From positions 133-64,132 of the forward strand of contig CAUZHA010000010.1 of assembly GCA_963579555.1 (NCBI GenBank): DNA of 64,000 nt, read 5' to 3'. The DNA is from Planctomycetes bacterium UBA1146 (GTDB lineage Bacteria > Planctomycetota > UBA8108). The position numbers and the translations under genes are program-made. The first letter of the stretch is position 1. Every line of letters starts with the position of its first letter. The notes under the pieces were generated by a model, which saw only the letters and a program-made list of their open reading frames with translations, was not told where the DNA came from and ran no database searches. Below are positions 10,178-39,300 of the stretch, one piece after another.

Positions 10178-11995
<1,818 letters not shown>

Positions 11996-18792: not shown

Positions 18793-18955
18793 CGCTGGTT
18801 TCCTCGAGGTTTTGAGTGCTCCTTTTTTAAGCGGGAGCGGGCGCGAGGGCAAGAGGGGGGCTTGGCGGTTGCAAATCGAACCTCATCGTCGGACACTATC
18901 TGCAGTGGCAAGGATTAAAGAACATTCGCATTCCCTGAACCGAAGGGGCTTCGGC

Positions 18956-21900
18956 ATGAAATTTACGGTATTCCCGGTTTTCCTGTTCCTCTTCCTCGGC
19001 GCGGCCGCCCCGCTTCAGTCCGCGGATTGGCCGACCTACCGCCATGACAACAGCCGCAGTGGCACGACGGCTGAAAAACTCGTCGCTGAAAAGCTCGAGC
19101 TCAATTGGGTTCACCGGGCGGCCCTGGCGCCGCGGCCGGCCTGGGCCGGACCGGCGAAGTGGGATGCCTACGCCGGAATTCGCGGACTGCGGTCGATGCG
19201 CAATTACGATCCAGCCTTCCACGTCATCGTCGTAGATGGCTCGGTTTACTACGGCTCTTCGGCGGATCATGGCGTGCATCGTCTCGATGCGAAGACCGGC
19301 CGGGAAAAATGGGTCTTTTTTACCGATGCCCCGGTTCGGATCGCGCCGACCTGGTATTCGAAGAAACTTTACTTCGGCTCTGATGATGGCTACGCCTACT
19401 GCATCCGGGAACGCGATGGTGAACTGGTCTGGAGGAAGAGGCCTGAACTTCCCGGGCGCCTGATTCTCAACAACGGCAACTTCATTCCGTTCTGGCCCTG
19501 TCGTACCGGGGTGCTGGTGGACAGGGGGCTGGCTTATTTCGGCAATTCCCTCCTGCCATGGAAGGATTCCTATATCAGCGCGGTCAACGCGAGTACCGGC
19601 AAGCCGTCTTCCAGGGGAGGCTTCCTGAAGAAGTACGGAGGCCTGACCCTCGAGGGAGCCCTGCTCGCATCCAGCAGTCGACTCATCGCCCCCCAGGGCC
19701 GGGTGGCGCCCCTGCTTTTTGGCCGGGCGGATGGAGCCAGGCTCGGTTCGCTGGAAGGTGGTGGTGGTTGCTTCGTTCTCCTTACCGATGATTCCAATGT
19801 CCTTCATGGACCGGGCAATAAGACGGGCTGGATCACCGGCAGCAACGAGAAGAGTCGCGGCAAGATCGCCACCTTCAAGAATGGCAACGAGATGATCATT
19901 TCCGGCGATACGGCCTATATGCTGAGCGATCACGCGCTGGCGGCGATGGACCGCAAAAACAAGAAGGGCAAGTGGAGAACCGCGGGCGAGTATTCGCTGA
20001 CCATGATCCTTGCCGGTGATACGGTTTTCGCCGGGGGAATAGACGAGGTGGCCGCTTTCCGTACAAGCGACGGCGAGCAGATCTGGAGGGGCGCGGTAGA
20101 AGGCGGTGTTTATGGCCTTGCGGTAGCCGATGGGGCTCTCTTTGTCAGTACGGACCAGGGCAGGATCGCCTGCTTCAGGGCGGGCAAGGGGAAGCCAGCC
20201 AGGGGGGAAACAGCCGGGAAGAAGGACGAGCTTGCGGTGCTCGACGTTCCCGGGTTCAAGAGTCCGGGGCTTGTCGGTCGTTGGCTGCTGCAGTCCGGCG
20301 CGGTCAAGGGACGCAAGGTATTCGACCTCGCCGGGAAGCAGCACGCCGCGGCGCAGGGGAATCCCCGGCTGGTGAAGTTAGGTGAACACCAGGGGATGAA
20401 TTTCGAAGGACAGATTTCCAGCCTGAGAATTGTCGATGATCACAAGGATGCGAACCTGCCCGTGAAGGCGATCTCGGCGGAGGCCTGGGTCCGGATAGAC
20501 CAGGCGGCTCCCTGGGGTTGTATCATCGGCGCCTTCCAGGACAACGGCAGCTACGAGAAGGGATGGATCCTGGGCTATGTAGGCTCGAAGTTTTCTCTCG
20601 CGATCCAGGGGACCGGCGGCGCGTCGGCGATGACCTACATGACAGCCGACCGGGCTTTCAGGGCCGGGCAGTGGTATCACGTCGTCGGCACCTACGACGG
20701 CGTCGAGATGAGGCTCTATGTCGATGGCAAGCTCGCGGCCGCCGGGAAAGCCCAGAGCGGCCCCATCGATTATCCACCGTCCGCGTTTTACGAGATGGCG
20801 GCCTACCATGACAAAGATGAGTATTTCAGGTTGAGAGGCGCGCTGAACGAGGTCCGGGTCTATAACCGCGCCCTCTCGGCCGCTGAATGCGCCAGGCACA
20901 GCCGATCGAAAAAACTCGAGGGCGGAGGCTCCGGCGGCATCGCGGTCCCCGCCGAACAGCTGCTCACCCTGAAGGCGGGCCCTTTCCTGCATTTTACCTC
21001 TCTGGACACCGCCGTGGTGAATTGGGAGACGGCCGAGGCATCGAGGACGGCTGTTCTTTTCGGGCCAAAGGGTGGGGAGCAGGAGAAGCTCGGGCGTTCC
21101 GGCGCGCGCAGGGAGCACGAGCTCGAGTTCACAGGGCTCGCCCGCAACAGGCTCTATACCTACAGGATCGTGGCGGGAATCGAGGGTAAGGAGCTCAGCA
21201 CGGCAGAGTACGAGTGCGATAATTTTTTTAATCTCACGCTGCCGTCGATGCGAGCCGAGCTGAATCCTTATTCCGGAGCGAAAGACTCGAGCGTGGCGGC
21301 CGACGCCGCCCAGCGAATTCTCGATGAGACAGGAATTGATCAGGGGATCTGCCTCGTGCTTGCCAGTGGAGACGGACGTCTCGCCTGGGAGCTCGCCGTG
21401 CGCAGCCGTCTGCAGGTGGTCGGGGTCGACACGGATGAGAAGGCTGTGGATAAGGCTCGGAGGCTGGCCTACAAGGCGGGCGTCTATGGTGTCAGGCTGA
21501 AGTATTACAAGGTCGACTCCCTCTCGAAGCTGCCTTTTACAGGACACTTTGCCAACCTGGTCGTCTCGGCAGGGATGATCGAGAAGGGGCGCTGCGAGGG
21601 CAGCGCGAGTGAGCTGTTCAGGATACTGCGGCCCGGTGGCGGCATCGCCTACCTGGGACAGCCGGCCGAGCTGAAGCCGACCCTGACAACGACCCGGCTG
21701 GCCTCCTGGTTGAAGCGGGGCGGAGTGGAGTTCAGGTCCATCGAACGCGATGGCTCCTGGGCGGTCGTTCGTCGCGGTCCCCTGGAGGGGGCGGGCTCCT
21801 GGTCGCATCAATACGGCCAGGCAGACAACTCGGCCTTCGGCGGCGAGCAGCTCGCGGGCGCGGCAGGCATCAATGATCTCGATGTCCAGTGGATCGGCCG

Positions 21901-23092
21901 CCCGGGCCCCAGGGCGCAGCCGGATCGCAACGGCAGGAAGCCCTCGCCTCTCTCGACCAATGGGCGTCTCTTTGTCCAGGGCCTGCACAGGATCATCTGC
22001 CTGGATTCCTACAATGGCTCGATTCTCTGGAGCTGGGAGATCCCGTCCATGATGCGCTTCAATATGCCGCGCGATTGCAGCAATTGGTGCGCTGATGGAG
22101 ACAACGTCTTCGTCGCGATGGGCGGGCGTTGCTGGCGCATTGACGCGAAGACCGGAGCTCTGAGCAAGAGCTACAGGGTCCGTCCGGGAAACATCAAGGA
22201 ATGGGAGTACGACTGGAGCTACCTCGCCCGGGAGGGCGACAAGGTCATCGGCAGCGGCGTCAAGAAGGGTACGGCCTTCACGAGCTTCTGGGGCGGGTCC
22301 GGGGCAGGCTGGTACGATGCCAAGAGCGGCCCGGTGACGCATAAGGTCTGCAGCGAGAATCTCTTCGCTCTCTATGAAAAGTCCGGGTTGCTGAAGTGGG
22401 AATATTCGAAGGGAGTCATCCTCAACCCGACGATCACAGTGAGCGGCGGCCGAGTCTATTTTGTCGAGAACCGCAACGCCGGGGTCAAGAAGGCGAGTGA
22501 TCGGCGGGTAGGCTCGTCTTCGCTCTGGACAGACCAGTACCTCGTCGCTCTCGACTCCGATTCCGGCAAGGTTGTATGGGAGAAACCTATCGACACGGCC
22601 AATGGGGATGTCGTCTTCTATCTCGCCAGCGGCGGCGGCAAGGTGGTGCTGGTCGCATCCGGGGGCAAGAAATACCATACCGATGTCTTTGATTCGAAAA
22701 GCGGCAAGGCACTCTGGAAGGACAGCTTCAGCTGGGGACAGGATCATCATGGCGGACACATGGCGCGCCCGGCGATCGTCAATGGCGAGGTCTACGTTCG
22801 GCCGCGCGCCTATGACCTGGCGACCGGTAAGGTGCTCAAAAAGAGCCTCCCTGGAGGAGGCTGTGGAACCTATGCCGCTACCACGGGAGCCTTTATCTTC
22901 CGCTCGGGAAACGTGACCATGTGGGACAGGTCAAATGGCAAGGTGACGAGTTGGAGCAGGCTGCGTCCGGATTGCTGGCTGTCTACGATCCCGGCCGGTG
23001 GGATGCTGCTTTCTCCCGAGGGTGGCGGGGGCTGCAGCTGCGGCTCCTGGCTGGAGACCTCGATCGGCTTTATTCCCGTGGCGCGAAAGTGA
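18956..23092 (+). CDS. Secreted multidomain protein: PQQ-type propeller + LamG/ConA + FN3-like + methyltransferase-like + PQQ-type propeller
   Basis: Signal peptide MKFTVF..; DWPTYRHDNSRSG; LamG motifs ISAEAWVR, WYHVVGTYDG and LNEVRVYNRALS; FN3-like VVNWET...REHEL; CLVLASGDG; C-terminal CG..CW..GCSC. Confidence 0.85.
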   Translation: MKFTVFPVFLFLFLGAAAPLQSADWPTYRHDNSRSGTTAEKLVAEKLELNWVHRAALAPRPAWAGPAKWDAYAGIRGLRSMRNYDPAFHVIVVDGSVYYGSSADHGVHRLDAKTGREKWVFFTDAPVRIAPTWYSKKLYFGSDDGYAYCIRERDGELVWRKRPELPGRLILNNGNFIPFWPCRTGVLVDRGLAYFGNSLLPWKDSYISAVNASTGKPSSRGGFLKKYGGLTLEGALLASSSRLIAPQGRVAPLLFGRADGARLGSLEGGGGCFVLLTDDSNVLHGPGNKTGWITGSNEKSRGKIATFKNGNEMIISGDTAYMLSDHALAAMDRKNKKGKWRTAGEYSLTMILAGDTVFAGGIDEVAAFRTSDGEQIWRGAVEGGVYGLAVADGALFVSTDQGRIACFRAGKGKPARGETAGKKDELAVLDVPGFKSPGLVGRWLLQSGAVKGRKVFDLAGKQHAAAQGNPRLVKLGEHQGMNFEGQISSLRIVDDHKDANLPVKAISAEAWVRIDQAAPWGCIIGAFQDNGSYEKGWILGYVGSKFSLAIQGTGGASAMTYMTADRAFRAGQWYHVVGTYDGVEMRLYVDGKLAAAGKAQSGPIDYPPSAFYEMAAYHDKDEYFRLRGALNEVRVYNRALSAAECARHSRSKKLEGGGSGGIAVPAEQLLTLKAGPFLHFTSLDTAVVNWETAEASRTAVLFGPKGGEQEKLGRSGARREHELEFTGLARNRLYTYRIVAGIEGKELSTAEYECDNFFNLTLPSMRAELNPYSGAKDSSVAADAAQRILDETGIDQGICLVLASGDGRLAWELAVRSRLQVVGVDTDEKAVDKARRLAYKAGVYGVRLKYYKVDSLSKLPFTGHFANLVVSAGMIEKGRCEGSASELFRILRPGGGIAYLGQPAELKPTLTTTRLASWLKRGGVEFRSIERDGSWAVVRRGPLEGAGSWSHQYGQADNSAFGGEQLAGAAGINDLDVQWIGRPGPRAQPDRNGRKPSPLSTNGRLFVQGLHRIICLDSYNGSILWSWEIPSMMRFNMPRDCSNWCADGDNVFVAMGGRCWRIDAKTGALSKSYRVRPGNIKEWEYDWSYLAREGDKVIGSGVKKGTAFTSFWGGSGAGWYDAKSGPVTHKVCSENLFALYEKSGLLKWEYSKGVILNPTITVSGGRVYFVENRNAGVKKASDRRVGSSSLWTDQYLVALDSDSGKVVWEKPIDTANGDVVFYLASGGGKVVLVASGGKKYHTDVFDSKSGKALWKDSFSWGQDHHGGHMARPAIVNGEVYVRPRAYDLATGKVLKKSLPGGGCGTYAATTGAFIFRSGNVTMWDRSNGKVTSWSRLRPDCWLSTIPAGGMLLSPEGGGGCSCGSWLETSIGFIPVARK

Positions 23093-23097
23093 GTCGC

Positions 23098-23346
23098 CTA
23101 GGTTCCGGGGGCCGCGCCGCCGCCCATCTTCCTGCGGTCGCTTTCTCTGATGTTCCTGTAGATGAACCCGATGACGAAGCTCGCCATGCTCAGGAAGAGT
23201 CCCAGCATGAAGAGGATGCTCCAGGTGAATCCCGACGCCGAACCGGAGTCGATACTCTTTCCTCACATGACGCATTGCGCCCGGGCGATAGCCGGGGCGA
23301 GGAAGAGAGCCAGCCAGGACAGGGAGATGAGATAAAGCCGTTTCAT
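23098..23346 (-). CDS. Small exported membrane protein with CxxU motif; candidate selenoprotein (in-frame UGA at 23263-23265)
   Basis: Translation MKRLYLISLSWLALFLAPAIARAQCVM(UGA)GKSIDSGSASGFTWSILFMLGLFLSMASFVIGFIYRNIRESDRRKMGGGAAPGT(TAG), 82 aa. The frame stays open and GC3-rich after the UGA and ends 5 nt from the convergent neighbour. Confidence 0.8.
23229..23253 (-). promoter_or_regulatory. Candidate bacterial SECIS element
   Basis: AUC-GAC-U-CC-[GGUUC]-GG-C-GUC-GG-GAU stem-loop; the loop begins with GG exactly 18 nt after the UGA. Confidence 0.7.
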
Positions 23347-23354
23347 AGGCTGAG

Positions 23355-23382
23355 AGTATAGCCCTCGGCGGCAGGCAGTTAA
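23355..23382 (-). promoter_or_regulatory. Leaderless-type promoter of the CxxU gene
   Basis: Minus strand TTAACT-N16-TATACT, then 8 nt to the ATG at 23346; no Shine-Dalgarno. Confidence 0.6.
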
Positions 23383-23410
23383 CAGTTTCACGCCAGAAAT
23401 CGCGCGGTTC

Positions 23411-24670
23411 TTGTTCAGACCGCCGGCTTGCCGTAACATTTGGGGCTTGCCAGATATCACGCGACCTATCAAGAAGACCGGCCCCGGATCGATTTCTGTC
23501 CTGATTCCGCTGGTGCTCCTGCAATATGCCGCAGGGGGAGCTTTCTACCCGTTCCTCGGGCCCTATCTCGAGAACGCCAAGGGCTTCGAGGTCAGGGATC
23601 TCAGCCTGCTGGCTCTTGGGGCCGGCGTCGTGAATTGTGTGATGCCCTTTGCCTGGGGTGCCCTGGCCGACCGTGTCATAGCAGTCAATCGTCTCATCTG
23701 CCTGCTGCACCTGTCGGCGGCATTTTCCCTGCTGATCTTTTCACAGGGAGCGGGCCTGGTCATGCTGACGGGCCTCTTCGCCCTCTACACGGCCCAGCAG
23801 CAGCCGACCAATTCGCTCTCCAACGCGCTCTGCTATCACAACCTGGATGACCCCCCGAGGCAATTCGGTCCGCTCAGGCTCTGGGGCTCGGTCGGCTGGG
23901 CCTTGCCTTCGGTTCCCATCGCTTTCTGGCTCCTCGATGGAGGCGAGCGCTCGCTTCATTTCATCATCTACCTGACCTTCGGGCTCCATCTCGCCCTCGC
24001 CCTTCTCTATCCCTTTCTTCCTCACACCCCGCCGGCGGGCCGCAAGGAGGGAGCCGGGAGTTTTTTCACCGACCTGGCCGTTCTGTTCAGGGCGCCGGGC
24101 TTCGCGATGCTCCTGCTGGTCACCTTCCTGGTGCAGGCGGGCTTCGCGATCATGTTCTATCTCTCGCCGCTGGCACTCGGACGGTCGCTGGTTGATTCCG
24201 ATATTCGCCTGGGTTGGCTGGGTCCGATTCAGACCGCCGGGGTGATTCTCGAGATCCCTCTCTTCCTGCTGCTGCCGAGGCTTCTGGGGCGTCTTGGTTA
24301 CAGGAAGGTGCTTGGCCTGGGGATTGCAGCTTCGCTGGTGCGGCACCTGGTCTTTGCAACCTCGACCAGCCCGCTGGCGCTGGCGCTGGCGAGCCAGCTG
24401 ATCGCTCCCTGCGTGGTCTTCTTCCTCATCGGAGTGAGCCTGGCCATCAACTCGATCGCCGGGCGGGAGATTCGCGCTACCTCCCAGACGCTGCTTGCCC
24501 TGGCGGGCTCCGGTCTCGGGTCGGTCCTGGGGCTGGCCTCCAGCAGCCTGCTTGCTTCAGGAGACTCGGTGAAGAGCTCCTTCTTCTTCGCGTGCGGCTG
24601 CAGCCTGCTGTCGTTGCTGTTGCTGCTGGGGGTCCGTTTTCCCGCGCCGATGGCCAGGCAGAAATCCTGA
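23411..24670 (+). CDS. MFS transporter (nucleoside:H+ symporter / MFS_1-like)
   Basis: About 12 hydrophobic segments; WGALADR and FGPLRLWGSVGW motifs; start uncertain (TTG at 23411 or 23447). Confidence 0.88.
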   Translation: MFRPPACRNIWGLPDITRPIKKTGPGSISVLIPLVLLQYAAGGAFYPFLGPYLENAKGFEVRDLSLLALGAGVVNCVMPFAWGALADRVIAVNRLICLLHLSAAFSLLIFSQGAGLVMLTGLFALYTAQQQPTNSLSNALCYHNLDDPPRQFGPLRLWGSVGWALPSVPIAFWLLDGGERSLHFIIYLTFGLHLALALLYPFLPHTPPAGRKEGAGSFFTDLAVLFRAPGFAMLLLVTFLVQAGFAIMFYLSPLALGRSLVDSDIRLGWLGPIQTAGVILEIPLFLLLPRLLGRLGYRKVLGLGIAASLVRHLVFATSTSPLALALASQLIAPCVVFFLIGVSLAINSIAGREIRATSQTLLALAGSGLGSVLGLASSSLLASGDSVKSSFFFACGCSLLSLLLLLGVRFPAPMARQKS

Positions 24671-30801: not shown

Positions 30802-33800
30802 ATGAGCCGCTGTCTCACCTTGCAATCAGTTCGGGTTTTTACAGTCCTCGTGGTTGGGCTTTGCGCTTGCGCCAATCTCCAGGCTGTAACGATTTCGGAG
30901 ATCATGTACTCGCCCCGGGGCGAGGTTCAGAAGCGTTTCGAGTTCATCGAGCTTTACAACGAGAACCCCGACCCGCTCGATCTCTCCGGCTATGCGATCT
31001 GCGACGGGATCAGCTTCGTTTTTCCCGAGGGAACCTGGATGGAGGGAAACTCCTTCCTGGTCGTCTGCGCTGACCAGGAGGCGATCCGGGCGCTCTACGC
31101 TATCGACAATACCGTCGGCAACTGGGCCTGGGATGGAGAGAGCGGCAACTCGCTGTCCAACGGCGGCGAGGACATCGAGATCTGCAACCCGGGCGGCCGG
31201 ACTGTCCTTCGGGTGAAATACAACGACCGCGGCAAGTGGCCGGTGGGAGCGGATGGGCTGGGACACTCCCTCGAGCTCTTCGCCCCCTACACCGACCAGG
31301 ATGATCCCGACAGCTGGATACAGTCAAGCGATCCCGGCGGCTCGCCCGGCGGCCCGAACCCCTGCTGGGAGGGGGTTGAGGTATCGGAGGGCCCCTCGGG
31401 CCCCGGCCCCATCTACGGTAACCCCGTTGGCCTGTTCCACGGGCAGCAGGATATTGGCGAGCCCTGTACGGCCGGGAGCTTCACCACGCGTACGGTCGAC
31501 GGCATCGAGAGCTACGAGATCACCGCCTCCGGCGATGGCATCGGATCCGGCAGCGACCAGCTCCATTTCGGCTATCTCCAGGTCAGGGGGAACTTTGACC
31601 TGAGGGGGCGGCTCGTTTCGCGCAACTGGCTCGAGGGCGAGGGCATGGACCGGGCGGGGATCATGGTTCGCCGCGACCTGACGGATCGTTCGGCTTTTGT
31701 CTTCGTGCACGACTCCCCGGAGCCCGACGGGGCGAGGATCCTGCGCAGGACGACGCACGACAGCGACAGCAGCGAGGAGCCCGCGTCGCTGGACACCCAC
31801 CCGGAATGGTATCGCCTGCGGCGCAGCGGCGACTCCATCACCTGCTACTATTCGACCAACGGGAGGTCGTGGCGCGCCATCGGCTCGTTCAATAGCGGAC
31901 GCACGACCTGGAACAATGGAGAGGCGGCCTATGTGGGCTTCGCCCTGACATCGAGCGGCGGCTGCGGGACGTCCTCCGTCACCTGGGAAGACGTTCAGCT
32001 CACCGGCGATGTGATCTCCAGCCCCGGAGACGGGACGCTTCCCGGCGAGGGTGAGAAGGTGAAGGTACCCGAAGATCCCGGCGGTTTCTGCCGGGACCCG
32101 CTCGGGGTCCGGATCAACGAGGGCTTCTTTCGCGGCACGGACGAGCGCTGGATTGAGCTCTACAACTCGACCTCCGGAGATGTTGACCTTGCGGGCTATT
32201 ACCTGACAGATGACCGTAACGACTCTCAGAAGGTGGAGCTGGCCGCCGACACGGTCGTTCCGGCCGGCGGCTATCTGGTGGTGACCGAGGCGGCCCTGGG
32301 GCTGGATCTCTCCATCAGCGAGGAGAGCAACGATGTCTTCCTGGCGCTCATCGAGCCGCGGGGCGGACGGGTGGTCGACGCGGTCAATTTCCGTCCGAGC
32401 CACGACGGCAAGAGCGAGTCCCGGGTACCGGACGGGGGCGAGATGCGCGATGCGGCGGAGCCCACGCCGGGGGTTGAGAACAGGCTGGATGTGGAAACGG
32501 GCATCGTGATCAACGAGATCATGTATCATCCGATCTCCAATGACAGGAACCGCGAGTTCGTAGAGCTCTACAACCGCTCGGATGTGCCGGTGGATCTGAC
32601 CGGCTGGGAGTTCACCAGCGGCTTCGAGTTCAGCTTTCCCGACAATACGGTCTTGGCGCCGGGCGGCTACCTGGTGGTGGGGCGGGATCCCGCCCTGCTC
32701 AGGTCGGTCTACGGCCTGGAAGAGGGCTCGGTGCTTGGGCCGGTTGACGAGGATGCCCTCGATGATTTCGGCAGCCTGAGCGACCGCGGCGAGCGGATTA
32801 CCCTGCAGGACGGGATGGGCCGTACGACCGACACGGTGCGCTATTTCGACGGCGGCGAGTGGCCGCGCTGGGCGGACGGCCATGGGTCCTCGATCGAGCT
32901 TATCGATCCGCTGCAGGATAACCGCTTCGGCATGGCCTGGGATGCGAGCGATGACTCGGACAAGTCCGAGGTTACCAGCTTCTCCTACACTACACGCCAT
33001 AGGGGAGGTGAATCGGAGCTCCACCTGCTGCTGTTGAGCCGGGGAATTACCGTTGTGGACAACGTCTCGGTGCTCCAGGGAGGCGCGGCCAGCGAGGATA
33101 TTCCCATCATCGACACCAACGAGATCTGGGCCTATTTCAAGGGTACCCGGGCGCCTCCCGCGAACTGGAAGGCTCTCGACTTTGATGATTCTGACTGGCT
33201 CAGCGGGCGGACCGGCATCGGCTACGGCGATGGCGATGACGAGACCGTTCTCAATGACATGCGGAACAACTATCTGACGATCTTCTGCAGGAAAATGTTT
33301 ACCGTTGACGACCCCGAAGAGCTCGAGGAGCTGGTCTTCCAGGTCACGGTTGACGATGGGTTCTACGCCTATCTCAACGGTACCCAGGTCGCCTCCTACA
33401 ACGTCAACTCACCTGCCCATGATGCGCTGGCCTCCAGCGCTGGCGAGCCCAGCCTCCAGCAGCAATCGATTACGAATTTCCGCGAGCTGCTCAACGAGGG
33501 AGAGAATGTCCTCGCAGTGCAGGTTCATAACGGAGGCTCGCTGAACAGCTCCGACCTCAGCTTCATTCCGCGCCTGGTCAACCGGGTGCCTTCGGACGTC
33601 GTCCGGGGAGATGAGCGCCTGGTGAACCCGACCTTCAATTCAAACACCAGTGGCTGGACCATCCAGGGAACCCATGTGCGTAGCGGGCGCAGCACCACTC
33701 ATTCGATCGACGGGGCCGGCTCCCTGAAGATCATCGCCTCCGGACGCGGCGACAATAAGGTTAACCGGATTGAGAGCGCCAACAGCGGTGTGCGGTCGTT

Positions 33801-36315
33801 CAGTACGCAGGAGGACCAGCTTGTTGTCTTCGATGCGAAATGGCATGTCGGATCCCAGACGCTCAACACCCACGGCTACAAGCACGAGATGGCGAAGACC
33901 CACGAGCTCGCCGTGCCTGAAAACCTCGGCAGTCCCGGGGGCCTCAACAGCGTCACCAGGAGATTGCAGGCCGGCGGCGCCGTCAACCTGGGCCCGGTGA
34001 TGACCGACCTCGTGCAGACTCCCCAGGTTCCGATCGCTGGTGAGCAGGTCCGGATCCAGGTCCGCGCGGCCGACTCCGACGGGGTCGAGAGTCTTCGCCT
34101 GCGCTGGTCGGTGAACAACCCGACGACCAATCCCTCGACGGTGGAGATGACGGAGGTGGGAGGGGGCGCCTGGGAGGCCGTGGTTCCGGCGCAGAGCGTC
34201 AACTCGAGGGTCATCTTCTTCATCGAGGCGACGGATGCCTCGGGCAACCCCGGCCGCTTCCCGGTTGATATCTCCGAGCGCTCCCATCCCATGGTGCTGA
34301 ATCCACCGACGACAGGCATTCACGACCGGCGCTATTTCATCTACTCGCAGGAGTCGACAAGGAACCCGTCCACCCGCTTCCACGATTACCGCTTCCACAC
34401 GAGTGCCTACAACGAATCTCGTCTTGGCAGCCGCAGGAGGCTCTCCAACGACCTGGTCGACGGCTCCTTCAGCTTCGGCGGCACAACGATCTACCACGAG
34501 GCGGCGATGCGCTTCTCGGGGAGTCCCTGGGCCCGCGGCAGCTGGAACGGCAGCTTCCGGGTGGTCTCGCCCCGGGACAAGCCGATCAACGGGTGGATCA
34601 GGAAGTTCAACCTGGAGGACCATCACAACAACCCGAGCAACGCCCGGGAGCGGATCGCCCATTACCTGCTGCGCCTGAACCAGGGAACGATCGCGGTGCC
34701 CTATTCGGAGGTGCAGTCGATGGCCCGCTGGCAGGTCAACACCAGGATCACGACGACCCGCGAGCATGTCTGGGTGCCGGACACCCAGTATGTCGGGCTG
34801 TGGTTCGACGAGGCCGATGGCGACTTCATCGAGATGGATGACCGCTTCGTGATCAATGACAGTGGGGACCGGACGGGAAGCAGCGATGGCTACGTCCGCT
34901 ATCCGCCGCCGAGTGAACGCAGGCAGGGGGATGGATCCAATAAGGAGAACTACCGCTGGTTCTTCGGCCTGAGGGCCAAGAACGGCGCGGATGATTTCAC
35001 CAACTTCATGGAGTTCTGCCGCCTGATGGATCCCTCCGTTACCAATAACGCGGCCTTTGAGAGCCAGGTCTGGGACAAGGTCAACGTCGAGGAGATGCTG
35101 CGCATCTGGGCGATCCGCTTCAACCAGGCTGACTGGGACACCTGGGGGACAGACCGAGGCAAGAACTGCTATTTCTACCAGGATGGTTCCGAGGGAAGAT
35201 GGCACCTGCTGGCCTGGGATATGGAGCTGACCTTCGAGACCGGTCGTCTTGACCAGTTCCTGATTCCCAGTTCGCCGAATTCGGCCTTCCGTCCCAGCGG
35301 CGGCAAGTTCGCCGAGGTGGACAGGATGTTCCAGATCCTGCCGATCAAGAAGCTCTACTACGGCATCCTTGATACGATGGTCAACGGCGACAACGCCTTC
35401 TATTCCTCCACCCGGCTGAATGAATACATGACCAAGCTCGACCGGCTGGGGATGAACGCTACGGATATCGGCAAGCCGAACGGCTACATCGACCAGCGCC
35501 GCAACCGCCTTCGCACAAGGATCGCCTCTGTCTCGAATACGGCCTTCCGGATCTCGACGAGGAACGGAGCGGACTTCTCCACCGCGGAGCGGCAGGTCTC
35601 TCTCGCCGGCACCGGGCCCGCGCGGCTGCGCCAGGTGATCTTCAATGGCGAGAGCTATCAGCTCGAGCACACGAGCATGACGGCCTGGCGGGTAGACGAA
35701 ATCCCCCTTGGGCCGGGCGAGAACCTCCTCGAGCTGCTCGCCATCGATCTCAACGGAAATGTATTTGGCGCCGACAGCATCACCGTTACCAGCACGGCGG
35801 CCTTCGAGCCGCCCACTATCAACGCCCTGGGTCCAGCCGAGGGCGTTGCCGGCGATACGATCGAGATCAGGGGTGCGAACTTCCTGCCCGGGATCACGGT
35901 GTTCTTCGGCGATACGCTCGCGCCTTCGGCGCAGAGAATCTCTCCGACGAAGATCATTGTCGAGGTGCCTGAGGGCGCAGGCGTGGTCGAGGTGACGGTG
36001 CGAAACTCCAACGGGCAGGAGGCCTCCGGGGCGACCTTCACCTACATAGCGGAGGGGGCGGTGTTCGTACGCGGGGACGCCAACAACGATGGGGCGGTCG
36101 ACATCAGCGACGCGGTTTCGGTGGTCGGCCATCTCTTCCTCGGGCTGGCCCTGGGCTGCCGGGATGCCGCCGATGCCGACGATGACGAGCAGCTGGTGAT
36201 TACCGACGCGGTCTACCTGCTCGATTTCCTCTTCAGGTCAGGCGCTCCGCCGCCGCCGCCCTACCCGGCGGCGGGAACCGACCCCGACGGCGACATCCTG
36301 GGCTGCGATTTTTAG
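30802..36315 (+). CDS. Large secreted lamin-tail-domain / CotH-kinase / IPT / dockerin-like protein, paralog 1
   Basis: ISEIMY and INEIMYHP..EFVELYN lamin-tail repeats; CotH-like DWDTW..KN..WDME; IPT/TIG (IRGANF); C-terminal RGDANNDGAVDISDAV dockerin-like motif. Confidence 0.88.
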   Translation: MSRCLTLQSVRVFTVLVVGLCACANLQAVTISEIMYSPRGEVQKRFEFIELYNENPDPLDLSGYAICDGISFVFPEGTWMEGNSFLVVCADQEAIRALYAIDNTVGNWAWDGESGNSLSNGGEDIEICNPGGRTVLRVKYNDRGKWPVGADGLGHSLELFAPYTDQDDPDSWIQSSDPGGSPGGPNPCWEGVEVSEGPSGPGPIYGNPVGLFHGQQDIGEPCTAGSFTTRTVDGIESYEITASGDGIGSGSDQLHFGYLQVRGNFDLRGRLVSRNWLEGEGMDRAGIMVRRDLTDRSAFVFVHDSPEPDGARILRRTTHDSDSSEEPASLDTHPEWYRLRRSGDSITCYYSTNGRSWRAIGSFNSGRTTWNNGEAAYVGFALTSSGGCGTSSVTWEDVQLTGDVISSPGDGTLPGEGEKVKVPEDPGGFCRDPLGVRINEGFFRGTDERWIELYNSTSGDVDLAGYYLTDDRNDSQKVELAADTVVPAGGYLVVTEAALGLDLSISEESNDVFLALIEPRGGRVVDAVNFRPSHDGKSESRVPDGGEMRDAAEPTPGVENRLDVETGIVINEIMYHPISNDRNREFVELYNRSDVPVDLTGWEFTSGFEFSFPDNTVLAPGGYLVVGRDPALLRSVYGLEEGSVLGPVDEDALDDFGSLSDRGERITLQDGMGRTTDTVRYFDGGEWPRWADGHGSSIELIDPLQDNRFGMAWDASDDSDKSEVTSFSYTTRHRGGESELHLLLLSRGITVVDNVSVLQGGAASEDIPIIDTNEIWAYFKGTRAPPANWKALDFDDSDWLSGRTGIGYGDGDDETVLNDMRNNYLTIFCRKMFTVDDPEELEELVFQVTVDDGFYAYLNGTQVASYNVNSPAHDALASSAGEPSLQQQSITNFRELLNEGENVLAVQVHNGGSLNSSDLSFIPRLVNRVPSDVVRGDERLVNPTFNSNTSGWTIQGTHVRSGRSTTHSIDGAGSLKIIASGRGDNKVNRIESANSGVRSFSTQEDQLVVFDAKWHVGSQTLNTHGYKHEMAKTHELAVPENLGSPGGLNSVTRRLQAGGAVNLGPVMTDLVQTPQVPIAGEQVRIQVRAADSDGVESLRLRWSVNNPTTNPSTVEMTEVGGGAWEAVVPAQSVNSRVIFFIEATDASGNPGRFPVDISERSHPMVLNPPTTGIHDRRYFIYSQESTRNPSTRFHDYRFHTSAYNESRLGSRRRLSNDLVDGSFSFGGTTIYHEAAMRFSGSPWARGSWNGSFRVVSPRDKPINGWIRKFNLEDHHNNPSNARERIAHYLLRLNQGTIAVPYSEVQSMARWQVNTRITTTREHVWVPDTQYVGLWFDEADGDFIEMDDRFVINDSGDRTGSSDGYVRYPPPSERRQGDGSNKENYRWFFGLRAKNGADDFTNFMEFCRLMDPSVTNNAAFESQVWDKVNVEEMLRIWAIRFNQADWDTWGTDRGKNCYFYQDGSEGRWHLLAWDMELTFETGRLDQFLIPSSPNSAFRPSGGKFAEVDRMFQILPIKKLYYGILDTMVNGDNAFYSSTRLNEYMTKLDRLGMNATDIGKPNGYIDQRRNRLRTRIASVSNTAFRISTRNGADFSTAERQVSLAGTGPARLRQVIFNGESYQLEHTSMTAWRVDEIPLGPGENLLELLAIDLNGNVFGADSITVTSTAAFEPPTINALGPAEGVAGDTIEIRGANFLPGITVFFGDTLAPSAQRISPTKIIVEVPEGAGVVEVTVRNSNGQEASGATFTYIAEGAVFVRGDANNDGAVDISDAVSVVGHLFLGLALGCRDAADADDDEQLVITDAVYLLDFLFRSGAPPPPPYPAAGTDPDGDILGCDF

Positions 36316-36390: not shown

Positions 36391-39300
36391 ATGATCCATC
36401 ATACTTACGCATCGAGCCTGTGCTTGGTGTCAGCGCCGGCAAGGTCGGCTATCGCTTACATTCTTCTTTTCGCATTGCTTGTTCTTTTTCCTGCTTCGGG
36501 GAGGCTCCATGCTCTGACCATCTCCGAGGTCATGTACCACTCCGGCGCCCTCGAGGACCAGGGTGATGAGTTCATCGAGCTCTACAATGAGAACATCGAT
36601 CCGGTCGATCTGAGCGGCTACTCGATCTGCAATGGAATCAATTTCGTCTTTCCCCGCGGCACCTACCTCGATGGTCACTCCTACCTGGTGATCTGCGCAA
36701 ACGAGGCCGCGATTCGTGGCCGCTACGGCATCACCAATACCATTGGCGACTGGATCGGCGCACTGGATAATTCCGGCGAGAGAATCGAGATCTGCAATAC
36801 CGGCGGCCGCGTCGTTACGGAGCTGCGTTACAACGACCGGGGAAAGTGGCCGGTGGGAGCTGATGGTACGGGACATTCCCTTACACTCAAGGCACCCTTC
36901 CTGGATGTAGACGATGCTGACAGCTGGCGCCTGAGCAGAGCCCTGGGAGGTACGCCGGGCAGGCCGAATGGTCCCTCTTTTGAGGCGGGGGCGGTCTTTG
37001 AGCCGCCGGCCAATGGCATGGACTCGAACGGTTTCATTCTCACCTGGCTGGTTCTCGGACCCTATACCGGAGCCGCCTGCAATATTGGCGACGCGGTCAT
37101 TCGCGCGGACTGGTTGCGTGAAGCCGGAGTCGGCACCCGGCGGCAGACGGATATGGACTGGAGGGCTGGAGATGTGGTCAATACCAGCTTTGCCAGCGCT
37201 CGCTCCACTGGCCTTCATCAGAATTCACCGACCAATACTCCTACGGTCGAGGAGTACCTCTCGTTTGGAGACACGATCGATTTCAACGAGTCGGTCTGGC
37301 CTCCGGACCCTGAAAACGTGATGGGCTACGCCTTCACCTACGTAGACAACGTCACGGGTTCGGACCTGGGAGTTACCATCGGGTGCGCGAGCGATGACGC
37401 CATCGCCGTCCTGATCAACGGCAGCCACGTACATGTGAATGATGCCTGCCGGGGTGTCGGCAATTCCGGGCAGGTCCAGGACACCGCCTCGGCGACCCTG
37501 CAGCCGGGGAAAAACCTGGTAGCCGTAAAGGTTTTCGAGAACGGCGGCGGCTGGAGCTTCAGGTTGCGTTTCCAGGAACGAGCAGGCGGCGCCCCGATCA
37601 CCGACATCTCGCAGCTCCAGATCACCACGAATGTCGATGAGGGCCTCGACTTTGACGGCAACGGCGACCCGATCGAGGACCCCGGCGGCGGAGATCCCGG
37701 GGACCCCGGACCGGACATTCTCCAGGAGGCTGGCAGCTCGCCCGTGCTCCTTAACGAGGCGCTCATGCTGACCAATGGAGAGCGCTGGATCGAGCTCTAC
37801 AACCGCTCGGGCTCGACTGTCAATCTCTCGGGGCATTATCTGACCGATGATCCCGGCAACCTCACCAAGCGGCAGTTCCCCGGAGGGACAAGTATCGTCT
37901 CCGGCGGTTACCTGACCTTCACCGACACCGAACTGGGACTCGATTTCTCGATTACCGAAGAGGAGGACAGGGTTTTTGTTGCCCTGGTGGATGACACCGG
38001 CGAGAAGGTGCTCGATGCCTACAACTTCGAGCCCGAATTTGTCGACATGAGCGAGGCCCGGATTCCTGATGGTGATGACGAATTGGAGGGCGCCTCTGTG
38101 CCGACGAGGGGCGCGGCCAACAGGATGGATGTGAACCAGGCTATCGTGATCAACGAGATCATGTACCATCCCCTTGGCGACAACGAGGACAAGGAGTACC
38201 TTGAGCTCTACAATCGGGGCGACCGGGTTGTAGACATCAGCGGCTGGGAGCTCAATCGCGGGCTCAGCTTCACCTTTCCCGCCGGCACCCGGATGTCTCC
38301 CGATACCTATCTCGTGATCGGGCGCAACCCGCGCTTGATTGAGGAGCTCCATGGCCTTCCGGCCAACTCGGTTCTCGGTCCGGAACAGGATCCGGATGCG
38401 GTTGATGACTTCAGGACCCTGCGCGACAGCGGCGAGAGGCAGACTCTCAAGGACGATCTTGGTCGCACAGTCGACACGGTACGCTATTACGATGGGGGCG
38501 ACTGGCCGCGCTGGTCGGATGGGCTGGGCTCTTCGATGGAGCTGATCGATCCCTACCAGGACAACCGCTTCGGCGCGGCGTGGGATGCGAGCGATGATTC
38601 CGACAAGGCGGAGGTTGAGCATTTCAGCTATGTGGGCCGCCACGGGGGCGGGGAGTCTGAGCTCCATGTGTTGCTCATGACGCGCGGGATGAGCCTGGTG
38701 GACAACCTCTCTATCGTCGGCGGTGCGGTTCGTAATAACGACACCGAGCTGATTGGAGATGATGAAACCTGGCGCTATTTCAAGGGGACCCAGGCGCCTC
38801 CGGCTAACTGGCAGACCTCAGGTTTCGACGATTCAGGCTGGGAGAGCGGACGGACCGGGATCGGCTACGGCGATGGCGACGACAACACGGTGCTTGATGA
38901 CATGAGGGAGAGCTACCTGACGGTCTTCTGTCGCAAGACCTTCAACGTGACCAATATCGAAGATATCAACGAGCTCATCCTCTCGATCACCGTCGATGAT
39001 GGTTTCTACGCCTATATCAACGGCGTCCAGGTCGCCTCCTACAACGTCAACAGCCCCGACTGGGACGCGCCGGCCTCGAGTGCCGGCGAGCCTACGCTGG
39101 TGGAGCGAACCCTGGAGAACCCTGGCGCGGTCCTGCGGCTCGGCGAGAACGTCCTCGCGGTGCAGGTTCACAACGGCAACCTCACCAGCTCAGATCTGAG
39201 CTTCATTCCCCGTCTCGTTGACCGGACCACGACCTTTGTCGATGGAGAGGAGCAGCTTGGTAACGGCGACTTCAACTCGAACACCCGCGGCTGGATGATA

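What the first reader, a model, noticed from the sequence alone, without database searches (positions are those of the whole stretch)
23098..23346. Hidden small CxxU protein: candidate new selenoprotein family
Seen: the ORF track stops at ...AQCVM*, but after the UGA (23263-23265) the frame continues 54 codons with strongly GC3-biased codons. It encodes a linker, one TM helix (GFTWSILFMLGLFLSMASFVIGFIY) and a basic tail, and ends at a TAG 5 nt from the convergent neighbour, filling the gap exactly. A signal peptide ending A-R-A would leave a mature N-terminus Q-C-V-M-(UGA). Established: UGA at a Cys position of a CxxC motif is the classical signature of selenocysteine. From recollection, not a search: small proteins of the form signal + A(Q)CxxC + G(F/Y)xxSILFM + TM occur in Planctomycetes, Bacteroidetes and Acidobacteria, often near heme-copper oxidase genes, and I know of no Sec form. 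Inference: an exported, membrane-tethered CxxU redox or metal (Cu)-handling peptide.
Basis: partly seen in the sequence, partly recalled or inferred. Interest (0 to 1): 0.93.

Follow-up and report, generated by a model that had tools for sequence, protein, structure and literature searches.

The report
New small membrane-anchored selenoprotein gene
A tiny gene that ordinary annotation cuts off at a UGA codon most likely encodes an 82-residue exported, membrane-anchored protein with selenocysteine in a Cys-x-Met-Sec motif. It is the first selenium form of an unnamed protein family that otherwise sits in cytochrome oxidase gene clusters.

Summary
On the minus strand, 23346-23098 reads as signal peptide, QCVM, UGA, then 54 more in-frame codons (linker, one TM helix, basic tail).

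Evidence that the UGA is decoded:
- 20 related loci from marine Planctomycetota MAGs and metagenomes (18 distinct alleles with the window's) all keep TGA at codon 28.
- All keep the downstream frame open, with pN/pS 0.33 in frame against 0.92-1.68 out of frame.
- Synonymous variation collapses exactly over a hairpin that fits the bacterial SECIS model (GUU loop, 19 nt after UGA, -8.8 kcal/mol).
- TGA is otherwise the commonest stop in the window.

A profile search found about 45 uninterrupted homologues (Acidobacteria, Bacteroidota and others) with an invariant A-Q-C-A-M-C. The UGA aligns with the second Cys (hhalign 99.1%). All nine Cys forms whose context I read lie in aa3/caa3 oxidase clusters, often right after SCO1 and DUF420 (CtaM).

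No Pfam, NCBIfam or PDB entry matches, and none of the 119 selenoprotein families in a 2026 inventory does.

Limits: the Sec forms come from one narrow clade, the hairpin has almost no covariation, and the Sec machinery could not be checked. The copper/redox role in oxidase assembly is inferred, and the window's gene is not in an oxidase cluster.

The parts
23098..23346 (-). Complete coding sequence of the small selenoprotein candidate: 82 codons with UGA at codon 28, plus the TAG stop
   Evidence: Orthologues in 20 loci. pN/pS is 0.49 upstream and 0.33 downstream of the UGA in this frame only.
23278..23346 (-). Signal peptide, codons 1-23 (MKR, hydrophobic core, A-R-A), with predicted signal-peptidase I cleavage before Gln24
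   Evidence: Read from the sequence. Ala at -1 and Gln at +1 are invariant or nearly so across the Sec and Cys forms. No signal-peptide predictor was available, so cleavage is inferred from the (-3,-1) rule.
23263..23277 (-). Q-C-V-M-U motif, codons 24-28. Q, C, M and the UGA are invariant in the Sec clade; it aligns with the invariant Q-C-A-M-C of the Cys forms
23263..23265 (-). In-frame UGA, proposed selenocysteine codon
   Evidence: TGA in 21 of 21 loci. It aligns with the invariant second Cys of the family.
23232..23252 (-). SECIS-like hairpin, nt 14-34 counted from the U of UGA. It has 5 bp, a 1x1 mismatch and 3 bp, with apical loop G23-U24-U25. It can extend to nt 9-39 (23227-23257).
   Evidence: -8.8 kcal/mol and 19 nt between the UGA and the loop. 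The core is invariant in DNA. The minimum of synonymous diversity lies at codons 32-42. There is only one compensatory change, C15-G33 to U-A in L005.
23221..23262 (-). Ser/Gly-rich linker (GKSIDSGSASGFTW), which also encodes the hairpin
   Evidence: It aligns with the Ala/Ser/Gly-rich linker of the Cys forms.
23158..23220 (-). Single transmembrane helix SILFMLGLFLSMASFVIGFIY
   Evidence: Read from the sequence. pN is 0.02-0.09 across the helix. It is conserved as a hydrophobic segment in all homologues.
23101..23157 (-). Basic cytoplasmic tail (RNIRESDRRKMG...), followed by the TAG stop at 23098-23100
   Evidence: A basic stretch directly after the helix is found in all family members.
23355..23382 (-). 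Promoter-like element TTAACT, 16 nt, TATACT. The -10 box ends 8 nt before the ATG, which suggests a leaderless or nearly leaderless mRNA.
   Evidence: 1 site found against 0.1 expected. GCTATACT is conserved at the same distance in all 21 loci.

Best explanation
Window 23346-23098 (minus strand) is one real gene, transcribed from its own promoter. Its codon 28 (UGA) is decoded as selenocysteine with the help of a hairpin that starts 11 nt downstream.

The 82-residue precursor is exported. The signal peptide is probably cut after Ala23. This leaves a 59-residue single-pass membrane protein. Its first five residues, Gln-Cys-Val-Met-Sec, face the periplasm on a short Ser/Gly linker, and its basic tail stays in the cytoplasm.

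It is the Sec form of an unnamed family of small membrane proteins with the signature A-Q-C-A-M-C. In other phyla this family is encoded inside aa3/caa3 heme-copper oxidase clusters, next to Sco1/SenC and CtaM (DUF420).

The inferred function is that the Cys-x-Met-Cys/Sec motif acts at the outer face of the membrane. It would either bind Cu(I) through a thiolate, a thioether and a selenolate, or act as a thiol/selenol redox pair serving copper-centre assembly of the oxidase.

Shown here: the gene, the conserved UGA, the homology, the Cys/UGA correspondence, and the oxidase context of the Cys forms. Inferred: Sec insertion, signal-peptide cleavage, topology and the Cu/redox role. I put the selenoprotein claim at about 0.8 and the oxidase copper/redox role at about 0.45; the confidence given for this explanation (0.75) refers to the selenoprotein claim together with family membership.
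For: 1. The UGA and the open downstream frame are conserved. This holds in 21 of 21 loci and 18 distinct alleles, with protein identity 59-91%. Seven loci are GTDB species representatives.
2. Purifying selection acts in this frame on both sides of the UGA. Downstream pN/pS is 0.33, against 1.68 and 0.92 in the other frames.
3. The hairpin fits the published bSECIS model as quoted in PMC13188914. That model requires a 3-9 nt loop, a G in the first two loop positions, 16-37 nt of spacing, and an energy of -7.5 kcal/mol or lower. Here the loop is GUU, the spacing is 19 nt and the energy is -8.8 kcal/mol. Synonymous diversity drops to 0.04 over codons 32-42, against 0.2-0.6 elsewhere.
4. UGA is not reassigned. 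It ends 14 of 25 Pfam-supported genes of the window and ends the small gene itself in three orthologues.
5. A profile built only from Sec forms found a Cys form. The joint profile found about 45 more, all with QCAMC. The Sec-only profile against the Cys-only profile gave hhalign 99.1%, E 1.8e-18, with the UGA column on the invariant second Cys.
6. Nine of nine Cys-form contexts lie in heme-copper oxidase clusters. In four of them the order is SCO1, DUF420, then the small gene. CtaM (DUF420) and Sco are known oxidase assembly factors (PMC9145763).
7. Some Planctomycetes carry complete Sec-insertion gene sets (PMC4807772).
Against: - All Sec forms come from one narrow clade. Their neighbouring proteins are 84-99% identical, so the 21 loci are not 21 independent events.
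- The hairpin is conserved rather than covarying. It has one compensatory change in one allele, which is not significant (122 of 500 shuffles). It is weaker in the L005/L016/L020 group (-5.8 to -6.9 kcal/mol).
- The loose bSECIS model is also met by chance after the Cys codon in 4 of 6 Cys-form genes.
- No tRNA-Sec, selA, selB or selD was seen in the window or in about 25 kb of flanking contig. This was too small a sample to count either way.
- No Rfam SECIS family matched.
- The window's gene is not in an oxidase cluster. It lies between a PQQ-propeller/methyltransferase giant and an MFS transporter, so the functional link rests entirely on the Cys relatives.
- Nothing here tests copper binding or redox activity.
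Confidence: 0.75

Rival explanations
1. Decaying pseudogene. A nonsense mutation (TGC to TGA) arose in the common ancestor of one narrow Planctomycetota clade, after the gene left the oxidase cluster. The rest of the frame has simply not yet decayed.
For: All TGA forms belong to one closely related clade. TGC to TGA is a single base change. The gene is displaced from the oxidase context seen in 9 of 9 Cys forms. The Sec machinery is unverified.
Against: The 18 distinct alleles differ by up to 40% in protein, yet none has a second stop or a frameshift. pN/pS is 0.33 downstream of the UGA. The promoter-like element and the ATG are conserved in all loci. The trough of synonymous variation over the hairpin is unexpected for a dead gene.
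Confidence: 0.07
2. True termination at UGA. The gene would make only a 27-residue precursor, that is, a secreted QCVM tetrapeptide after signal-peptide cleavage. The downstream part would be conserved as RNA, or translated separately from the internal Met47/Met48.
For: Gene callers stop there (P0002) or start at Met47 (P0001). The hairpin could serve another RNA-level role. UGA is the usual stop in this genome.
Against: Codons 29-46, which lie before any internal ATG, show in-frame synonymous changes (AGT/AGC, TCG/TCA, ATC/ATT, GGA/GGC). They align with the linker of the uninterrupted Cys forms. The UGA falls exactly on an invariant Cys of a continuous family.
Confidence: 0.05
3. SelB-independent programmed readthrough. 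The UGA would be read by a near-cognate tRNA (Trp, Cys or Arg), stimulated by the downstream hairpin, giving a non-selenium protein.
For: A conserved hairpin just after a leaky UGA could promote readthrough. The Sec machinery is not shown.
Against: A UGA in the place of an invariant Cys of a CxxC-type motif is the classical Sec signature. The hairpin geometry matches SelB-type SECIS elements. Conserved programmed readthrough of this kind is hardly known in bacteria (my own knowledge).
Confidence: 0.03

Closest known systems
Bacterial selenoproteins with a CxxU motif and Cys-containing homologues (for example SelW-like, AhpD-like, GrdA)
   Same: It has an in-frame UGA at a Cys position of a CxxC-type motif. 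A stem-loop lies directly downstream in the coding region. Cys homologues far outnumber the Sec forms. It meets the Sec/Cys-pair criteria used to define new families (PMC1088965; PMC13188914).
   Different: There is no thioredoxin-like or other globular fold. The motif sits at the very N-terminus of a mature peptide of about 59 residues that is tethered by one TM helix. There is no Pfam or NCBIfam hit to any of the 119 listed families.
Selenoprotein forms of metal-handling membrane proteins: putative mercuric transport protein MerT-like (C/SxxU), cation-transporting E1-E2 ATPase (UxxC), SO_0444 Cu/Zn efflux transporter (UxC)
   Same: These set a precedent for Sec replacing Cys in a soft-metal (Cu/Hg) binding motif of a membrane protein (Table 1 of PMC13188914).
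   Different: No sequence relationship was detected: PF02411, TIGR01525 and NF033936 were not hit. Those proteins are polytopic transporters, whereas this one is a single-pass peptide.
Copper-centre assembly factors of heme-copper oxidases: Sco1/SenC (CxxxC), Cox11 (membrane-anchored, Cys motif next to the TM helix), PCuAC, CtaK, TlpA, CtaM (DUF420)
   Same: The Cys forms are encoded in the same clusters, often directly after sco and ctaM. Like Sco, Cox11 and TlpA, the protein is membrane-anchored with a periplasm-facing Cys pair. The review PMC9145763 states that further bacterial assembly factors are expected.
   Different: There is no homology to any of them and there is no folded domain. 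The role is untested, and the protein could equally be a small structural subunit. The window's own gene is not oxidase-linked.

Membership tests
Bacterial selenoprotein (UGA decoded as Sec) | In-frame UGA conserved among orthologues, with coding conservation on both sides | tested here: met
   TGA in 21 of 21 loci and 18 alleles. pN/pS is 0.49 upstream and 0.33 downstream in frame, and 0.92 or more out of frame.
Bacterial selenoprotein (UGA decoded as Sec) | UGA aligns with a conserved Cys in homologues that have an uninterrupted frame | tested here: met
   About 45 Cys forms with an invariant QCAMC. hhalign gives 99.1% with the U column on the second Cys.
Bacterial selenoprotein (UGA decoded as Sec) | [quoted passage not shown] | tested here: met
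   The loop is GUU, the spacing is 19 nt, and the energy is -8.8 kcal/mol in the window and most alleles. Synonymous variation is lowest over it.

Caveats. The energy is -5.8 to -6.9 kcal/mol in the L005 group. Covariation is not significant. The same criteria are met by chance in 4 of 6 Cys forms. No Rfam hit.
Bacterial selenoprotein (UGA decoded as Sec) | Genome encodes selA, selB, selD and tRNA-Sec | not testable with these tools
   None was found in the 64-kb window or in about 25 kb of flanks of the 170-kb source contig, and no tRNA was found in any locus. Some Planctomycetes do have the full set (PMC4807772).
Bacterial selenoprotein (UGA decoded as Sec) | Selenium shown in the protein | not testable with these tools
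   Needs 75Se labelling or mass spectrometry.
Unnamed 'AQCxMC' small membrane proteins of heme-copper oxidase clusters | Architecture: signal peptide ending in A, then Q-C-x-M-C, a short linker, one TM helix and a basic tail, in 65-110 residues | tested here: met
   Alignments. The window protein has U in place of the last C.
Unnamed 'AQCxMC' small membrane proteins of heme-copper oxidase clusters | Statistically supported sequence homology | tested here: met
   The Sec-only profile found P0003 at E 0.07 in 5.8 billion sequences. Profile against profile gave 99.1%, E 1.8e-18.
Unnamed 'AQCxMC' small membrane proteins of heme-copper oxidase clusters | Encoded within a COX/CtaA/CtaB/SCO1/DUF420 cluster | tested here: not met
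   This holds for 9 of 9 Cys forms. The window gene and all its Sec orthologues instead lie between a PQQ/methyltransferase gene and an MFS or DUF1570 gene. No COX genes were found in the window.
Any of the 119 described prokaryotic selenoprotein families (inventory of 2026) | Match to the family's Pfam, NCBIfam or TIGRFAM model | tested here: not met
   hmmscan with U read as C, at E up to 10, returned only noise. The family list was read. The few families defined only by CDD or PANTHER models were not scanned.
Sco1/SenC, Cox11, PCuAC, MerT/MerP, thioredoxin-like reductants | Match to the family profile, or to a solved structure's sequence | tested here: not met
   There were no such hits for the window protein or for 11 Cys forms. 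The PDB profile search returned only noise.

The most novel reading that the evidence does not exclude
The gene is the first selenium-containing member of a widespread but unrecognised family of about 60-residue membrane-tethered peptides with the mature N-terminus Q-C-x-M-C/U. These peptides would be a missing factor, or a small subunit, in copper-centre assembly of aa3/caa3 heme-copper oxidases in Bacteroidota, Acidobacteriota, Planctomycetota and others, acting together with Sco and CtaM. The natural Cys-to-Sec exchange marks the second Cys as the reactive residue.
Probability: 0.4. Interest if true: 0.75.

Novelty: new member of a known kind. Interest (0 to 1): 0.62.

Why it matters
1. It adds a selenoprotein family that none of the standard routes could see. 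Gene callers stop at the UGA or start at an internal Met. The protein is too short and too hydrophobic for routine homology searches, and no profile of the Cys family exists.

2. A natural Sec-for-Cys replacement is a strong pointer to a reactive or metal-binding residue. It therefore gives a first functional handle on an unnamed family that is encoded in aa3/caa3 oxidase clusters beside Sco and CtaM. The assembly of the oxidase copper centres in these phyla is incompletely known, and the review PMC9145763 explicitly expects undiscovered factors.

3. It is an unusually minimal selenoprotein, with Sec at residue 5 of a mature peptide of about 59 residues. That makes it easy to test with synthetic peptides.

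It does not change how Sec decoding is understood.

Tried and rejected
- Word-index protein search with the full protein, U read as C: nothing found.
- Exhaustive phmmer against 1.84 billion representatives could only be run with the 54 residues after the UGA. It found only a 38-residue fragment called from Met47. The Cys family was reached only through profiles.
- Rfam at a permissive threshold over 22900-23500: only noise, and no SECIS family.
- Folding 86 nt around the UGA: not more stable than shuffles (z = +1.0). The 45-nt folds have z between -1.2 and +0.5. Thermodynamic stability alone does not support the hairpin.
- Covariation test: one compensatory pair, not significant.
- Control with Cys forms: bSECIS-like hairpins arise by chance in GC-rich relatives.
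- Scan of the window for other in-frame TGA genes with GC3 bias on both sides: 16 raw candidates. None lay in a Pfam-supported gene except adjacent, separate genes such as SSF and MiaE at 10178.
- Search for Sec machinery: no tRNA in the window or in loci L001-L020. No SelA, SelB or SelD domains among the window's large ORFs, nor in 10-kb extensions at both ends of the source contig.
- The BSepDB paper has no held supplement in which to look up these MAGs.
- A literature string search for QCAMC found nothing relevant.
- I suspected that a truncated NCBI call in an Acidobacteria MAG (P0041) hid a second Sec form. It does not: the frame is open with TGC.
- Genome-wide UGA reassignment is rejected.

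Full report
**1. The observation**

On the minus strand, window 23346-23098 reads:
MKRLYLISLSWLALFLAPAIARA / QCVM / UGA / GKSIDSGSASGFTW / SILFMLGLFLSMASFVIGFIY / RNIRESDRRKMGGGAAPGT / TAG.

- The UGA is at 23263-23265, and 54 sense codons follow it.
- The TAG lies 5 nt from the TGA of the convergent 1426-aa PQQ-propeller/LamG/methyltransferase gene.
- GC3 is 0.78 before and 0.85 after the UGA. Pfam-supported genes of the window have 0.74-0.84.

**2. The UGA is not an error and not a private mutation**

A pattern/tblastn scan of one genome per GTDB species found seven loci, all in marine Planctomycetota MAGs. A scan of metagenome contigs found thirteen more. With the window this gives 21 loci and 18 distinct coding sequences, with protein identity 59-91% to the window.

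- Every one starts with ATG and has TGA at codon 28 after Q-C-[V/P/A]-M.
- Every one keeps the frame open to a stop 51-57 codons later.
- Pooled pairwise Nei-Gojobori counts give pN/pS of 0.49 for codons 2-27 and 0.33 for codons 29-74 in this frame. The two other frames give 0.92-1.68.
- UGA is not reassigned. It ends 14 of 25 Pfam-supported genes of the window, and it ends the small gene itself in three orthologues.

One caveat: the flanking proteins of these loci are 84-99% identical to the window's. All Sec forms therefore belong to one narrow clade, and the UGA most likely arose once.

**3. The hairpin**

Counting the U of UGA as nt 1, nt 14-34 form a stem of 5 bp, a U·C mismatch, 3 bp and a loop G23-U24-U25. 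RNAalifold returns this as the consensus structure.

The published bacterial SECIS model requires (PMC13188914):
- a loop of 3-9 nt;
- a G in the first two loop positions, usually followed by G or U;
- 16-37 nt between the UGA and the loop;
- an energy of -7.5 kcal/mol or lower.

Here the loop is GUU, the spacing is 19 nt and the energy is -8.8 kcal/mol. From my own knowledge, the geometry also resembles the E. coli fdhF element, a minimal stem-loop 11 nt after the UGA with G23 and U24 in the loop.

The best argument that the hairpin is functional is evolutionary. Synonymous diversity is 0.04 in 8-codon windows within codons 32-42. It is 0.2-0.6 in most other windows along the gene and rises gradually on either side of the hairpin. 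Non-preferred codons such as GGT (which supplies U24) and GGA are invariant.

The weaknesses are real:
- There is only one compensatory change (C15-G33 to U-A in L005) and one G-U transition, which is not significant.
- The hairpin is weaker in the L005/L016/L020 group.
- Stability is no better than shuffled sequence.
- No Rfam family matches.
- The loose model is also satisfied by chance after the Cys codon in 4 of 6 Cys-form genes.

**4. Cys homologues**

Searches with a single sequence found nothing.

- A profile of the Sec forms, with U written as C, picked up a 94-residue protein, P0003, with the same architecture and QCAMCG.
- A joint profile then found about 45 proteins of 65-110 residues. 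All have a signal peptide, A-Q-C-A-M-C, a short Ala/Ser/Gly- or Glu/Asn-rich linker, one TM helix and a basic tail.
- Named sources include an Acidobacteria MAG and Aquimarina addita (Bacteroidota).
- Q, C, M and C are the only invariant columns.
- A profile built only from Sec forms against a profile built only from Cys forms gives hhalign probability 99.1%, E 1.8e-18. The UGA column falls on the invariant second Cys.

This is the classical Sec/Cys pair.

**5. Context of the Cys forms**

All nine Cys forms that I looked up lie in aa3/caa3-type heme-copper oxidase clusters.
- Four have the order SCO1/SenC, DUF420, small gene: Aquimarina and three metagenome contigs.
- The others sit directly after COX3 or COX4.

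[quoted passage not shown] Sco serves CuA (PMC9145763).

The window's gene is different. It has its own promoter-like element (TTAACT, 16 nt, TATACT) ending 8 nt before the ATG, conserved in all loci. It lies between the PQQ giant and an MFS transporter. There are no COX genes anywhere in the 64 kb. In L005 and L020 the MFS gene is absent, so that adjacency is not fixed either.

**6. What it most likely is and does**

Shown here:
- a real, selected gene;
- a conserved UGA at the position of an invariant Cys;
- a conserved hairpin at the SECIS position;
- membership by sequence and architecture in an oxidase-linked small-protein family.

Inferred:
- The UGA is read as selenocysteine by SelB and tRNA-Sec.
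- The A-x-A signal peptide is cleaved, so the mature protein starts Q-C-V-M-U.
- The N-terminus faces the periplasm and the basic tail faces the cytoplasm (positive-inside rule).
- The Cys/Met/Sec cluster binds Cu(I) or cycles as a selenenylsulfide in support of oxidase copper-centre assembly.

Cys, Met and Sec are all soft ligands. Sec forms of Cu/Hg-binding motifs already exist. A role as a small structural subunit of the oxidase cannot be excluded.

**7. Rivals**

- A young pseudogene. Against it: 18 alleles without a second lesion, pN/pS of 0.33, and a conserved promoter.
- True termination giving a secreted tetrapeptide, with or without internal initiation at Met47. Against it: in-frame synonymous changes in codons 29-46 and their alignment with the Cys-form linker.
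- SelB-independent readthrough.

Together I give these about 0.15.

**8. Comparison with what is known**

Neither the window protein nor the Cys forms hit any Pfam or NCBIfam model beyond noise. No solved structure is related by sequence. A 2026 inventory lists 119 prokaryotic selenoprotein families, nearly all with a model accession, and none corresponds. The string QCAMC does not occur in the searchable literature in this sense.

In kind this is a further bacterial Sec/Cys family with a CxxU motif and an in-ORF stem-loop. I therefore rate it as a new member of a known kind. The part that may prove more interesting is the unnamed oxidase-linked family itself.

**9. What could not be done**

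The Sec machinery of these genomes could not be examined. The source contig is ENA ERZ27247714 k141_1192983, 169.8 kb, and the window corresponds to about 14871-78870 of it. About 89 kb of that contig shows no sel genes, which is uninformative. Some Planctomycetes do have full Sec-insertion gene sets (PMC4807772).

**10. Verdict**

- Confidence that this is a genuine selenoprotein gene: about 0.8.
- Confidence in a copper or redox role in oxidase biogenesis: about 0.45.
- Interest: 0.62.

Noticed in passing
window 23355-23382 (minus strand); same position in L001-L020: A promoter-like TTAACT, 16 nt, TATACT element ends 8 nt before the ATG, with no Shine-Dalgarno sequence. GCTATACT is conserved in all 21 loci. 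This suggests a leaderless or nearly leaderless mRNA for the small gene.
   Followed up: partly
L021, L023, L024, L028 (Cys-form genes): The published loose bacterial SECIS criteria are met by chance downstream of the ordinary Cys codon in 4 of 6 Cys-form genes. All four are GC-rich; the two low-GC Bacteroidota genes have no such hairpin. A qualifying hairpin alone is therefore weak evidence in GC-rich genomes.
   Followed up: yes
L038 6869-7195 (Acidobacteria MAG QHXX01000115.1): The public annotation calls only a 64-residue product starting at an internal GTG. The open frame is 108 residues, from an ATG that overlaps the COX3 stop (TAGATGATG), and it has the full signal peptide and QCAMC. 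The family is systematically under-called: P0036 and P0038 start at the Met of QCAMC.
   Followed up: yes
L005 and L020 compared with window 23411-24670: The MFS/nucleoside-symporter-like gene that is divergent from the small gene in the window is missing in the L005/L020 sublineage. There the small gene lies directly next to the DUF1570 gene.
   Followed up: partly
window 1730-4717 (-) and 18812-23092 (+): Two paralogous giant proteins combine PQQ-like beta-propellers with an internal SAM-methyltransferase domain. The second also has a LamG domain. This is an unusual architecture, and its function is unknown.
   Followed up: no
window 30802-36315 (+) and 36391-41961 (+): Two tandem proteins of about 1850 residues, each with three lamin-tail domains and a CotH kinase-like domain. 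They are probably secreted or cell-surface paralogues.
   Followed up: no
window 23262-23265 with 23226-23229 (minus strand; nt 1-4 with nt 37-40 after the U of UGA): RNAalifold pairs the UGA codon itself, plus the next base, with UUCA at nt 37-40. This forms a lower stem around the hairpin, as in E. coli fdhF. These bases are invariant, so there is no evidence either way.
   Followed up: partly
window 1-64000; L034, L036: The window matches ENA metagenome contig ERZ27247714 k141_1192983 (169,828 bp), at about 14871-78870. A flagellar export cluster (FliF, FliP, FlhA and others) lies just beyond the right end of the window.
   Followed up: partly
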